IMG/VR virus record: IMGVR_UViG_3300037312_000757
DNA length: 64,000 nt
Reading direction: 5' to 3' (one strand)
Origin: a virus
Taxonomy: Duplodnaviria > Heunggongvirae > Uroviricota > Caudoviricetes
Each line of letters opens with the position of its first letter. Within the stretch, counting starts at the first letter, position 1. The notes beneath the pieces were generated by a model, which was given only the letters and a program-made list of their open reading frames with translations, was not told the DNA's origin and made no database searches. Below are positions 9,927 to 17,800 of the stretch, one piece after another. The position numbers and the translations under genes were made by a program.

Positions 9927-10003
9927 TGGCGGTCCCTGTGGGATTCGAACCCACGACCCTTGGTTTTGAAGACCAGTGCTCTGACCGCTGGAGCTAAGGG
10001 ACC
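9927..10003 (-). tRNA. tRNA with anticodon UCA (opal suppressor, Trp-like body)
   Basis: GGTCCCT TA GCTC CAGCGGTCA GAGC A CTGGT CTTCAAA ACCAA GGGTC GTGGG TTCGAAT CCCAC AGGGACC G CCA: 7-bp acceptor, T-arm, encoded CCA, loop CU-UCA-AA. Confidence 0.9.
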
Positions 10004-13693: not shown

Positions 13694-13925
13694 TTTCTTG
13701 TTTTTCTGTTATTTGGTCACCAAATGCGAACAAGAACGCCATTGCTTCTAGTCGATCCTCTATTCTCCAAAAGTGGAATCGACCTGACTTCTTGTCGCGA
13801 CCTCTAAGCCATGTGGGTCTAATGGATAACTGTTCCACCGACTCACGTTTGATACGAGCCATTGCCTTGTGGAAGCTTTCACCGTCGCCGCCAAAAGGAG
13901 TCCGAACCTCGTATGTTATTGACAT
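13611..13925 (-). CDS. hypothetical protein, possibly 'FKLxW'-related
   Basis: WRIEDRLEAMAFLFAFG. Confidence 0.5.
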   Translation of the reverse strand: MSITYEVRTPFGGDGESFHKAMARIKRESVEQLSIRPTWLRGRDKKSGRFHFWRIEDRLEAMAFLFAFGDQITEKQENGDTNVSSIEKFVGKERSRSGNEERRT

Positions 13926-14356
13926 AGCGAGAACCTCTTGGTGATGTGATGAATTTCTGCTTTGCGAGCAGGACCGATACCCAGCGCAGTGATGATGGGT
14001 TCGCCTGTAAAAGCAGTGCCAGGGATGATGTGATGCTGATCGATAATCAGTTCACAGGGAATGCCAGCTTCCTTTGCGGCGTCGTACGCCTTCAGAATCG
14101 CGTCTTGGTTCTTGGCCTTCAGGCAGATTTTCGTGCCGATGCCGTCTCGCTGGTAAAAATCAGCGATATCAGGACGCTCTTTGAGAGCTTTGAGGTATGC
14201 ATTGAGATACGCGTGTCCGGCTTGTGCGGCAAGTTTGCCGGCAGACATGTTGAGATCGCCTCGCGTAATGGCGTAAAGACGATATGGGTCCTCTTCAGCT
14301 TCCGTTGCGGAATTCTGGAGGAACTCTTGCACTCAGCGATGGTCGAGATGATTCAT
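13916..14356 (-). CDS. pth2: peptidyl-tRNA hydrolase, Pth2 family; ATG 14356 separated from body by in-frame TGA (14333-14335); alternative GTG start 14332
   Basis: RGDLNMSAGKLAAQAGHA, KICLK, IID, TALGIGP = Pth2 motifs; SD AAGGAG 8 nt before ATG 14356. Confidence 0.85.
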
Positions 14357-14453
14357 TTCATTTGCTCCTTTTAGGGTTTCAGTTAGCTAGTGAAGATGTT
14401 TCACTAGAGATCATACTCTAGCATCGTACATCTTCACCGTGCAAATATTTATT

Positions 14454-17064: not shown

Positions 17065-17092
17065 CAAAAGGGCCACTTGCGTGGCCCTTTTG
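17065..17092 (-). terminator. terminator of tmRNA gene
   Basis: AAAAGGGCCAC-GCAA-GTGGCCCTTTT. Confidence 0.8.
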
Positions 17093-17532
17093 GGTGTTTT
17101 CTGTTGCTAGGCATTTCCTGCCCCGGCATCGCTTAATCCCGAAGGATTAAGCAGCCATCGCAAAAACGTTGTCGTTTGCGGTTACTTCTTTTGTGCGCTT
17201 TACGAGCGTCACCTCAACGGATACCTCGTCTAATCTTTATTACCGCCCGTCGAAACCAGGTCGGGCCCATCAGGACAGTCCTCAGAGTACCAACGGGGTA
17301 AGCACTTTACGCCTTATCAGTGCGTCGCTTTGCCCAATTACCCCCAGTGTGAACCAGGGCGCTTGTGAGAGCTACAGCCTGCTTAGTTAGCAAGTGCTCT
17401 ACTAAAACTCTGTCATTCTGCACGCTTATCGCGAATCTGCTTGCATTCAGACCACAAAGACTGTTTTGGTGGACCCGGCGGGAATCGAACCCGCGTCCGA
17501 ACCGTCTATTCCATTAGATGTCAACAGCATCA
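17093..17532 (-). ncRNA. ssrA: tmRNA, circularly permuted (two-piece): acceptor piece ~17532-17467, coding piece 17268-~17093
   Basis: 3' end GCGGG TTCGATT CCCGC CGGGTCC A CCA lies upstream of 5' end GGGCCCGACCTGGTTTCGAC; acceptor stem with G3.U70, A73; tag ORF 17179-17147 ANDNVFAMAA*. Confidence 0.92.
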
Positions 17533-17538
17533 AAACAA

Positions 17539-17567
17539 ATGATAACGCAATTAGTTCACCGCGTCAA
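17539..17567 (-). promoter_or_regulatory. sigma70 promoter of tmRNA
   Basis: TTGACG-17nt-TATCAT. Confidence 0.75.
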
Positions 17568-17800
17568 GCGCTGTTTGCACCCAGGTGGCTGTTATTCACA
17601 ACACTCCGAGGAAGCGCTTTGAAGACGGCATGGCGATCGTTCTTGACGGCAATGCCTTGAGGTTTGAAGAAGGGAGCCATTGGGTCCTGTCTTGCGTAGG
17701 TGTCTTCCATAGCGTCGACCCATTCGAAGAAACGCTTGCGGTCGTATTCTTCGGGCGTTGTGCAGCCGTGCGCTGCGAGGAAATCTTGCTCATCGTGCAT
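17564..17800 (-). CDS. hypothetical protein
   Basis: Start MHDEQ after AGGAGA. Confidence 0.55.
   Translation of the reverse strand: MHDEQDFLAAHGCTTPEEYDRKRFFEWVDAMEDTYARQDPMAPFFKPQGIAVKNDRHAVFKALPRSVVNNSHLGANSA

What the first reader, a model, noticed from the sequence alone, without database searches (positions are those of the whole stretch)
14300..14370. pth2 begins SD-ATG-6 codons-TGA-body, overlapped by an ATG-AAA-TGA minigene
Seen (minus): AAGGAG CAA ATG AA ATG AAT CAT CTC GAC CAT CGC TGA GTG CAA GAG.... The ATG at optimal spacing (14356, 8 nt from SD) is in frame with Pth2 but hits TGA at codon 8. Read-through gives MNHLDHR[W]VQEFLQ. The GTG at 14332 has no SD of its own. A stem-loop (GAGTTC-CTCCA-GAATTC) follows the TGA. 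A second ATG (14361) forms a two-codon Met-Lys-stop minigene. Known: minigenes such as lambda bar cause peptidyl-tRNA drop-off, tRNA-Lys is limiting when Pth is short, and prfB autoregulates through an internal UGA. Inference: the leader senses termination efficiency or peptidyl-tRNA load.
Basis: partly seen in the sequence, partly recalled or inferred. Interest (0 to 1): 0.82.

Follow-up and report, generated by a model that had tools for sequence, protein, structure and literature searches.

The report
Suppressor-tRNA-gated phage Pth2 gene
A 524-kb phage keeps a UGA stop as codon 8 of a tRNA-recycling enzyme gene (Pth2) and carries its own UGA-reading tRNA; in about 30 related phages the early stop and that tRNA's anticodon always match, so the enzyme is most likely made only when the phage tRNA reads through the stop.

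Summary
On the minus strand lie AAGGAG, ATG (14356), six codons, an in-frame TGA (14335-14333) and then the Pth2 body. No start other than GTG 14332 precedes the first strand of the fold.

It is not chance. The layout (ribosome-binding site, ATG, mostly 1-6 sense codons, stop, Pth2) is shared by a monophyletic clade of about 37 phage loci. In all 30 non-redundant loci where I located a suppressor tRNA, its anticodon matches the leader stop: 26 TAG/CUA, 3 TGA/UCA, 1 TAA/UUA. The stop switched three separate times, each with a concordant anticodon change. The window's partner is tRNA(UCA) at 9927-10003.

- **Supported:** read-through by the phage's own tRNA.
- **Not supported:** the ATG-AAA-TGA minigene (absent from the 92%-identical relative), the stem-loop after TGA (z -0.9, not conserved), and sensing of peptidyl-tRNA load.
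- **Not excluded for this lineage:** reinitiation at the GTG.

TGA is otherwise an ordinary stop here (37% of long ORFs). I found no other gene gated this way.

Nothing is experimental, and I found no published description. This scan has already noted the same cassette on other DNA (amber, ochre and opal forms). The purpose of the gate is unknown.

The parts
14365..14370 (-). Shine-Dalgarno AAGGAG, 8 nt before ATG 14356
   Evidence: Equivalent AGGAG, GAAAGG or GGAG motifs lie 6-9 nt before the leader ATG in most relatives.
14336..14356 (-). Seven-codon leader, ATG AAT CAT CTC GAC CAT CGC (MNHLDHR), in frame with Pth2
   Evidence: L001 encodes MKHLDHR with synonymous changes (GAC>GAT, CGC>AGG). 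Leaders are 2-7 codons long in 30 of 34 related loci.
14333..14335 (-). In-frame UGA (codon 8), the gate
   Evidence: The same position holds TGA in L001 and Atu_ph07, TAG in most relatives and TAA in L147, always cognate to the phage suppressor tRNA.
13916..14332 (-). Pth2 body (138 codons from GTG 14332, stop TAA 13918-13916). Inferred full product is 146 aa starting at ATG 14356.
   Evidence: PF01981, E 2.7e-25, profile positions 2-115 of 115. PDB Pth2 2zv3, E 2.8e-15, with the first strand aligned to 'LYAITRGDL'. K33 and D98 are invariant in the clade.
9927..10003 (-). Phage tRNA with anticodon UCA, the inferred reader of the gate. Same strand, 3.9 kb downstream of pth2.
   Evidence: ARAGORN; Rfam tRNA 63.4 bits; sequence. 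It is the only stop-reading tRNA among 58 in the genome. Syntenic tRNAs 3-4 kb downstream of pth2 carry UCA in G001 and CUA in G002, G006 and G009.
14353..14361 (-). Out-of-frame ATG-AAA-TGA 'minigene'; judged incidental
   Evidence: It is created by a duplicated ATGAA, lies only 3 nt from the SD, and is absent from L001 and the other relatives.
14310..14326 (-). Stem-loop GAGTTC-CTCCA-GAATTC after the stop; judged not significant
   Evidence: dG -7.8, z -0.86. Present in L001 only, absent in L002, Phosso and Atu_ph07. Mean z over 37 loci is -0.38.
14390..14437 (-). Strong hairpin or palindrome just 5' of the SD (context; role unknown)
   Evidence: dG -23.7, z -5.9. L001 keeps it through two compensatory pair changes.

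Best explanation
The gene is a stop-gated Pth2 paralogue.

Proposed mechanism:
1. Ribosomes start at the SD-ATG at 14356 and translate six more codons.
2. They then meet UGA at codon 8.
3. If release factor 2 wins, only a 7-residue peptide is made.
4. If the phage's own tRNA(UCA) (9927-10003) decodes the UGA, translation continues in frame into the full 146-residue Pth2-type hydrolase.

The stop sits in a non-conserved N-terminal extension, so the identity of the inserted amino acid does not matter. That would explain how the stop and the anticodon have been able to switch together in evolution.

Shown here:
- The architecture of the gene start.
- Its conservation across a clade.
- The perfect stop-anticodon match across 30 loci, including three independent switches.
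- The lack of any conserved start after the stop.
- The rest of the genome uses UGA as a normal stop.

Inferred, not shown:
- That the tRNA is expressed and charged.
- That read-through actually occurs, and how efficient it is.
- What the gate is for. My leading guess is that it makes the dose or timing of this specialised Pth2 paralogue depend on the activity of the phage suppressor tRNA, that is, on the state of phage tRNA supply or read-through.
For: - **Anatomy:**
- **First five genomes:** they share SD-ATG, 2-6 sense codons, a stop, then an open Pth2 frame. Window and L001 have TGA, L002 and Phosso have TAG, Atu_ph07 has TGA. Their suppressor tRNAs are UCA, UCA, CUA, CUA (two copies) and UCA.
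- **Wider sample:** a profile-based search gave 80 more loci. In the 'RLYAI.R.DL' clade the first in-frame upstream stop is TAG in almost all loci, and TAA in one. Most have no canonical start between the stop and the first strand.
- **Adjacent tRNAs:** a same-strand suppressor tRNA lies 17-940 nt upstream in 16 non-redundant loci. It is CUA with TAG and UUA with TAA (L147). One further locus (L141) has a CUA tRNA with an aberrant loop just upstream.
- **More distant tRNAs:** CUA tRNAs were found elsewhere in the contig for G006, G009, G010, G012, G013, G015 and G017.
- **Tally:** 30 of 30 non-redundant loci match.
- **Tree:** the gated clade is monophyletic (98/87) and TAG is ancestral. Three separate switches occurred (window+G001, Atu_ph07, L147), each with a matching anticodon change.
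- **No conserved start after the stop:** the next codon is GTG, GTT, ATT, GAA, GAC, CTG, ACT, AAA, AAC, GAT, GCT or TAC.
- **The internal ATG cannot be the start:** solved Pth2 structures begin 2-7 residues before the strand that aligns to 'LYAITRGDL'.
- **The segment after the stop is coding:** window versus L001 shows 4 synonymous and 1 non-synonymous change.
- **Controls:** more distant phage Pth2 genes have ordinary ATG starts. These include XacN1, Xoo-sp13, RsoM2USA, phiCbK, phiM19, Munch, SCTP-2 and L160-L199. So does this phage's second paralogue.
- **Context after the stop:** the base after the stop is a purine in 34 of 37 loci. From my own knowledge, this context favours suppression.
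Against: - No experiment of any kind supports the reading: no expression, charging or proteomic data.
- In the window and L001 the codon after UGA is GTG (UGAGUG). Termination-reinitiation could therefore make a protein only 8 residues shorter without the tRNA.
- UGA ends 37% of long ORFs in this phage, with no excess of back-up stops. An efficient suppressor should be costly, so read-through may be weak.
- One genome rated complete (G011, 543 kb) has ATG TCG TAG before pth2, but no CUA, UUA or UCA tRNA among its 66 predicted tRNAs.
- In seven fragmentary contigs the tRNA was not located.
- Three loci (L149, L151, L154) have an ATG at the edge of the first strand that could bypass the gate.
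- L144 and L148 show no leader start between the tRNA and the TAG.
- The 'DAGxT' motif of classical Pth2 is diverged in this clade, so the enzyme's substrate is uncertain.
Confidence: 0.72

Rival explanations
1. Termination-reinitiation. The 7-codon leader is an ordinary coupling uORF. Ribosomes terminate at UGA and restart at the adjacent GUG 14332, so Pth2 is made without any suppressor tRNA.
For: UGA is immediately followed by GUG in the window and L001. The GTG ORF contains the whole Pfam domain. ATT follows the stop in several relatives and GTG in L154.
Against: The codon after the stop is not a start codon in most of the clade (GTT, GAA, GAC, CTG, ACT, AAA, AAC, GAT, GCT, TAC). Reinitiation does not care which stop is used, so it cannot explain the 30 of 30 stop-anticodon match, the three concordant switches, or the tRNA sitting next to the gene.
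Confidence: 0.13
2. The leader, its overlapping ATG-AAA-TGA minigene and the downstream stem-loop sense peptidyl-tRNA load or tRNA-Lys shortage (lambda bar-like) and autoregulate Pth2.
For: The leaders are minigene-sized, 2-7 codons in 30 of 34 loci, and the product is a peptidyl-tRNA hydrolase homologue. From my own knowledge, short ORFs are prone to peptidyl-tRNA drop-off at their stop.
Against: The AAA minigene is unique to the window. The stem-loop has z -0.86 and is not conserved. The last sense codon of the leader varies widely. No path is evident by which peptidyl-tRNA accumulation would raise read-through. The phage also has an ungated Pth2.
Confidence: 0.05
3. Genome-wide code change (UGA = Trp, code 4) or selenocysteine insertion at the UGA.
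For: ARAGORN labels the tRNA 'SeC' because of its UCA anticodon. The genome has no tRNA-Trp(CCA). A hairpin follows the UGA.
Against: UGA terminates 195 of 533 long ORFs. The frame after it closes as fast as after TAA or TAG (median 15 versus 10-15 codons). There is no enrichment of in-frame TGA across conserved genes. The tRNA is 77 nt with a 7-bp acceptor stem and a short variable arm, so it is not Sec-type. Relatives use TAG or TAA at the same site.
Confidence: 0.03
4. Decaying gene. The stop is a nonsense mutation and the N-terminus is dead, or the gene starts at the internal ATG as annotated in Phosso and Atu_ph07.
For: GenBank annotators placed the start at the internal Met in both cultured phages.
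Against: The stop is kept at the same place across a clade whose Pth2 identity falls to about 40%. The frame stays open and changes are mostly synonymous. A start at the internal Met deletes the first strand, which is present in every solved Pth2.
Confidence: 0.03

Closest known systems
Stop-codon recoding in phages by phage-encoded suppressor tRNAs (TAG>Gln 'code 15', TGA>Trp 'code 4'; Borges et al., bioRxiv 10.1101/2021.08.26.457843)
   Same: A phage-encoded tRNA reads a stop codon inside phage genes. Expression of those genes is thereby tied to the tRNA while the host uses the standard code.
   Different: In recoded phages, in-frame stops are spread through many (late) genes and the code is effectively reassigned. 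Here the cognate stop remains a normal terminator (37% of long ORFs). Only one gene carries a single stop, placed within the first few codons, and the tRNA is often adjacent to that gene.
Orphan suppressor tRNAs of standard-code jumbo phages (Atu_ph07, PMC6102473; XacN1, PMC5852040; AP-J-162 'tRNA-Pyl', PMC11242549)
   Same: These are the same kind of tRNA, and for Atu_ph07 literally the same gene. The papers report UCA or CUA tRNAs in phages that use the standard code.
   Different: The papers state that no target could be identified. XacN1 was searched only downstream of annotated stops, and for Atu_ph07 targets were left open. Here a conserved target at the 5' end of pth2 is proposed for the Atu_ph07 group. 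XacN1's own pth gene has an ordinary start, so its tRNA remains unexplained.
prfB (RF2) autoregulation through an early in-frame UGA
   Same: An early in-frame UGA makes synthesis of a translation factor depend on how efficiently that stop is recognised.
   Different: prfB needs a +1 frameshift, an internal SD and a slippery CUU, and the product (RF2) acts on the very stop that gates it.
Lambda bar minigenes and peptidyl-tRNA drop-off (own knowledge)
   Same: An SD followed by a 2-7 codon ORF and a stop, in a system connected to peptidyl-tRNA hydrolase.
   Different: bar minigenes are free-standing and toxic when Pth is limiting. Here the short ORF is in frame with, and continuous with, a Pth2 gene. 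The specific ATG-AAA-TGA minigene is not conserved.

Membership tests
PTH2 peptidyl-tRNA hydrolase (PF01981) | Full-length match to the family profile above the curated cut-off | tested here: met
   89.3 bits against a cut-off of 23, profile positions 2-115 of 115. Matches to solved Pth2 structures 2zv3, 1wn2, 1q7s, 1rlk and 1xty.
PTH2 peptidyl-tRNA hydrolase (PF01981) | Active-site Lys (the GK motif) and Asp. These are K18 and D86 of S. solfataricus Pth2, from my own knowledge. | tested here: met
   K33 and D98 are invariant in alignment A1 and align to the GK and the D of 'RDAGH' in 2zv3.
PTH2 peptidyl-tRNA hydrolase (PF01981) | Classical 'DAGxT' motif after the catalytic Asp; hydrolase activity on peptidyl-tRNA | tested here: inconclusive
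   The motif reads D-Q-H-H-I in the window and D-S-G-H-V in Atu_ph07. Activity cannot be tested here.
Recoded phage genomes (code 4 / code 15) | Phage-encoded suppressor tRNA | tested here: met
   tRNA(UCA) at 9927-10003.
Recoded phage genomes (code 4 / code 15) | Cognate stop occurs in frame in many genes and is depleted as a terminator | tested here: not met
   TGA ends 195 of 533 long ORFs. There is no excess of long same-frame continuation. There is no enrichment of cognate in-frame stops.
prfB-type autoregulatory recoding | +1 frameshift at the early UGA, with the product acting on that stop | tested here: not met
   The body is in frame 0. The product is Pth2-like, not a release factor.
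Termination-reinitiation (translational coupling) | A start codon overlapping or adjacent to the upstream stop, conserved in relatives | tested here: not met
   GTG follows the stop only in the window, L001 and L154. Most relatives have a non-start codon there.
Selenocysteine insertion | Sec-type tRNA (long variable arm, 8-bp acceptor stem) | tested here: not met
   The tRNA is 77 nt with a standard cloverleaf.
Selenocysteine insertion | SECIS hairpin after the UGA | tested here: not met
   The hairpin after UGA is not above chance. Relatives use TAG or TAA at the same site.
Suppressor-tRNA-gated pth2 cassette (noted earlier by this scan; unpublished as far as I found) | Short leader ending in a stop, in frame with a Pth2 of the 'RLYAI.R.DL...QAGH' clade | tested here: met
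Suppressor-tRNA-gated pth2 cassette (noted earlier by this scan; unpublished as far as I found) | Cognate suppressor tRNA in the same genome | tested here: met
   It is the only suppressor tRNA in a complete 524-kb genome (one search gives completeness as 100).

The most novel reading that the evidence does not exclude
The suppressor tRNA and the gated Pth2-like paralogue form a self-contained measuring circuit. The early stop reports how much functional suppressor tRNA (or how much read-through) the infected cell has. The enzyme made in response acts on the products of that read-through, or on the suppressor's own acylated or peptidyl form. Read-through is thereby held at a set level in a phage that still uses the same stop to end a third of its genes.
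Probability: 0.15. Interest if true: 0.9.

Novelty: new variant of a known kind. Interest (0 to 1): 0.74.

Why it matters
Papers on jumbo phages that use the standard code report suppressor tRNAs whose targets they could not identify (Atu_ph07, XacN1). For the Atu_ph07/Phosso/window group, this finding proposes a conserved and testable target: the phage's own pth2 gene, currently mis-annotated as starting at an internal Met.

It would be a natural single-gene switch built from an orthogonal pair of stop codon and tRNA. It has been rewired in evolution among all three stop codons.

Two cultured phages (Atu_ph07 and Phosso) carry it, so the claim can be tested directly at the bench.

It also bears on annotation. 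Gene callers truncate or miss these genes and label the tRNAs 'SeC' or 'Pyl'.

Tried and rejected
- **Genome-wide recoding of TGA: rejected.** Terminator usage and same-frame continuation after TGA resemble those after TAA and TAG.
- **Other genes with the same 5' gate: none found.** I scanned the window genome, Atu_ph07, Phosso, G001 and G002. Candidates are as frequent for non-cognate stops, look non-coding, and only pth2 recurs.
- **Homology-based search for internal cognate stops: uninformative.** The first version was swamped by off-frame matches. The filtered version showed no enrichment for the cognate stop.
- **Initiator-like suppressor tRNA starting at the stop itself: rejected.** The tRNA has a G1:C72 pair and lacks three G:C pairs in the anticodon stem.
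- **Downstream read-through-stimulating structure: rejected**.
- **Sigma-70 promoter scan between trxB and pth2:** no match.
- **Suppressor tRNA in G011:** not found by two sequence patterns, an Rfam tRNA scan plus ARAGORN on all tRNA regions, or ARAGORN with introns.
- **XacN1, whose CUA tRNAs are also orphan:** its pth gene has an ordinary start, so it is not a member.
- **Literature:** three full-text searches found no description of a stop-gated pth2.

Full report
**1. The observation**

- AAGGAG at 14370-14365.
- ATG at 14361, which reads ATG AAA TGA out of frame.
- A second ATG at 14356, 8 nt from the SD, followed by AAT CAT CTC GAC CAT CGC.
- TGA at 14335-14333, then GTG at 14332.
- An open frame running to TAA at 13918-13916.

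ATG 14356 is in frame with this body. The body is a PTH2-family protein: PF01981, E 2.7e-25, profile positions 2-115 of 115 matching residues 18-137 of the GTG ORF. No ATG, GTG or TTG lies between the TGA and the internal Met of 'NMSAGK' except GTG 14332, which has no SD.

Solved Pth2 structures start only 2-7 residues before the strand that aligns to 'LYAITRGDL'. The internal Met therefore cannot be the start.

**2. What the window is**

The window is part of a complete 523,836-bp phage genome with terminal repeats. The genome has 58 tRNAs and a two-piece tmRNA. Its relatives are Agrobacterium phage Atu_ph07 and Sinorhizobium phage Phosso.

The genome has exactly one stop-reading tRNA. It has anticodon UCA and lies at window 9927-10003, on the same strand 3.9 kb downstream of pth2.

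TGA is nevertheless an ordinary stop in this phage:
- It ends 195 of 533 long ORFs.
- The frame behind it closes as quickly as behind TAA or TAG.
- There is no excess of back-up stops.

**3. Conservation of the layout**

The first five genomes all have SD-ATG, a few codons, a stop, then the Pth2 frame.

| Genome | Leader, stop and next codon |
|---|---|
| Window | MNHLDHR-TGA-GTG |
| L001 (92% identical) | MKHLDHR-TGA-GTG |
| L002 (70%) | MNKQ-TAG-GTT |
| Phosso (51%) | MKY-TAG-GTT, then 50 codons without a canonical start |
| Atu_ph07 (50%) | MIGEHF-TGA-ATT |

GenBank annotates the two cultured phages from the internal Met.

Window versus L001 shows synonymous changes in the leader (GAC>GAT, CGC>AGG). 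The segment behind the stop has four synonymous changes against one replacement. Both parts therefore look translated.

In this genome only about 0.8% of ORFs of 90 codons or more have an SD-ATG within 11 codons upstream of their bounding stop, whatever the stop. Recurrence of the layout in relatives is not chance.

**4. The decisive result: stop and anticodon change together**

I scanned the whole genomes or contigs of the first relatives for suppressor tRNAs.

| Genome | Leader stop | Suppressor tRNA |
|---|---|---|
| Window | TGA | UCA |
| G001 (contig of L001) | TGA | UCA |
| Atu_ph07 | TGA | UCA |
| G002 (contig of L002) | TAG | CUA |
| Phosso | TAG | CUA, two copies |
| G003 (40% identical) | TAG | CUA, 149 nt upstream of pth2 |

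A profile-based search of viral contigs added 80 loci. In the clade with the 'RLYAI.R.DL...QAGH' signature:
- The first in-frame stop upstream of the fold is TAG in almost all loci and TAA in one.
- Most have no canonical start behind the stop.
- An ATG lies 2-7 codons in front of the stop.
- In 16 non-redundant loci a same-strand suppressor tRNA sits 17-940 nt upstream, always cognate. It is CUA with TAG and, in L147, UUA with TAA.
- L141 has a CUA tRNA with an aberrant loop just upstream.
- For seven further large contigs, a CUA tRNA was found 1.5 kb to more than 200 kb away.

The tally is 30 non-redundant loci with an identified suppressor and 30 matches: 26 TAG/CUA, 3 TGA/UCA and 1 TAA/UUA.

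A maximum-likelihood tree makes the gated clade monophyletic (98/87) with TAG ancestral. The three departures from TAG are separate events: window+G001, Atu_ph07 and L147. Each is accompanied by the matching anticodon change.

The tRNA 3-4 kb downstream of pth2 is syntenic in the window, G001, G002, G006 and G009. The change from CUA to UCA therefore happened in one orthologous gene.

This is covariation of a codon with an anticodon. I see no explanation other than that the tRNA reads that codon.

**5. Controls**

More distant phage Pth2 genes start with an ordinary ATG a few codons before the first strand. These include XacN1, Xoo-sp13, RsoM2USA, phiCbK, CcrSwift, phiM19, Munch, SCTP-2, Kikimora, Astolliot, three uncultured huge phages and L160-L199.

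The window's own genome has a second, ungated Pth2 of that ordinary type. It lies at G000:444902-445288 and has GGAG, 7 nt, then ATG. The gate is thus a property of one paralogue family, not of phage Pth2 in general.

**6. What is not supported**

- **The minigene.** The ATG-AAA-TGA minigene comes from a 5-nt ATGAA duplication found only in the window. It is 3 nt from the SD and is missing in L001.
- **The stem-loop.** It folds at -7.8 kcal/mol, z -0.86, and has no counterpart in L002, Phosso or Atu_ph07. Over 37 loci the 45 nt behind the stop have mean z -0.38.
- **The leader's last codon.** It varies widely, so nothing points to tRNA-Lys or to any particular peptidyl-tRNA.
- **Reinitiation across the clade.** The codon behind the stop is a start codon in only a few lineages. 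For the window and L001, with UGAGUG, reinitiation remains a possible additional route.

**7. Other targets**

A scan for the same 5' gate in five genomes, and a homology scan for internal cognate stops, found no other recurrent target and no enrichment for the cognate stop. On this evidence pth2 is the main, perhaps the only, designed target of the tRNA.

**8. Caveats**

- Nothing is experimental.
- G011, rated complete, has ATG TCG TAG before pth2 but no recognisable suppressor.
- In seven fragmentary contigs I did not find the tRNA.
- Three loci have an ATG at the edge of the first strand.
- Two loci have no visible leader start between the tRNA and the TAG.
- The cognate stop is common among the phage's terminators, so read-through is probably weak or tolerated.
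- The 'DAGxT' motif is diverged in this clade, although the catalytic Lys and Asp are invariant. The substrate of the gated paralogue is therefore uncertain.

**9. Why gate?**

This section is inference only. A stop in the first few codons is the cheapest place for a gate, because failure costs only a 2-7 residue peptide. The stop lies in a non-conserved extension, so any inserted amino acid will do. That also explains how the stop and anticodon could be rewired, helped by the tRNA duplicates seen in Phosso, L144, G009, G012 and G013.

The output should follow the ratio of charged suppressor to release factor. Possible uses:
- A delay or dose control tied to phage tRNA supply.
- Extra hydrolase capacity scaled to read-through.
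- A feedback loop on the suppressor itself.

tmRNA genes lie nearby in the window, G001, G002, G003, G007 and G019. This fits a translation-rescue island but proves nothing.

**10. Prior knowledge**

The Atu_ph07 and XacN1 papers report the suppressor tRNAs and state that targets were not identified. The AP-J-162 paper calls its CUA tRNA 'Pyl'. Three full-text searches found no description of a stop-gated pth2.

This scan has noted the same cassette before on other DNA, in amber, ochre and opal forms. I reached the covariation independently before reading those notes. One of them led me to re-read L122 as a possible four-base (UAGG) variant.

**Verdict**

- Read-through by the phage's own tRNA(UCA) is well supported by comparative evidence.
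- The minigene, stem-loop and load-sensing parts of the interpretation are not supported.

Noticed in passing
window 14390-14437 (minus strand): A strong hairpin or palindrome lies just 5' of the pth2 SD. The outer arms are GTGAAGATGT/ACATCTTCAC and the inner arms CTAGAG/CTCTAG, with dG -23.7 and z -5.9. The L001 homologue keeps it through two compensatory pair changes. Its role is unknown: a 5' stabiliser, a processing site or an operator.
   Followed up: partly
L122:1458-1560 and L234:19755-19832 (contig G007): In this relative the leader ATG AAC ACA GCT ATG CAG ends in TAG-G and the Pth2 body continues in the +1 frame. A tRNA 6.5 kb downstream has the anticodon loop C-G-C-C-U-A-A, where CCUA complements UAGG, with G33 instead of U33. 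This is a candidate four-base decoding variant of the same gate.
   Followed up: partly
L127 / contig G011 (543 kb, rated complete): pth2 is preceded by ATG TCG TAG, but none of the 66 predicted tRNAs reads a stop. Two tRNA-like hits of about 112 nt with inserts (G011:79179-79289 and 80141-80252) were not resolved.
   Followed up: partly
G000:C1:444902-445288 (outside the window): A second Pth2 paralogue of the ordinary 'KQVIVARRDL' type has a normal GGAG-7nt-ATG start. A weak third PF01981 hit lies at 122138-122395.
   Followed up: partly
window 17089-17571 (minus strand): A phage-encoded two-piece (permuted, alphaproteobacterial-type) tmRNA with tag ANDNVFAMAA lies here. tmRNA genes also lie within a few kb of the gated pth2 in G001, G002, G003, G007 and G019.
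   Followed up: no
whole genome G000: There is no tRNA-Trp(CCA) among the 58 phage tRNAs. Atu_ph07, Phosso and G003 carry both Trp(CCA) and the suppressor. The suppressors resemble tRNA-Trp in the D and anticodon arms but mostly have A73 instead of G73.
   Followed up: no
L139, L140, L153 (viral contigs): These leaders contain two in-frame TAGs before the Pth2 fold, for example ATG AAT ACA TAG ATT GAT AGT CCA ACA TAG in L140.
   Followed up: no
L144/L145, L148 (viral contigs): The tRNA(CUA) ends only 17-23 nt before the gate TAG, with no start codon between them. How translation starts there is unexplained.
   Followed up: no
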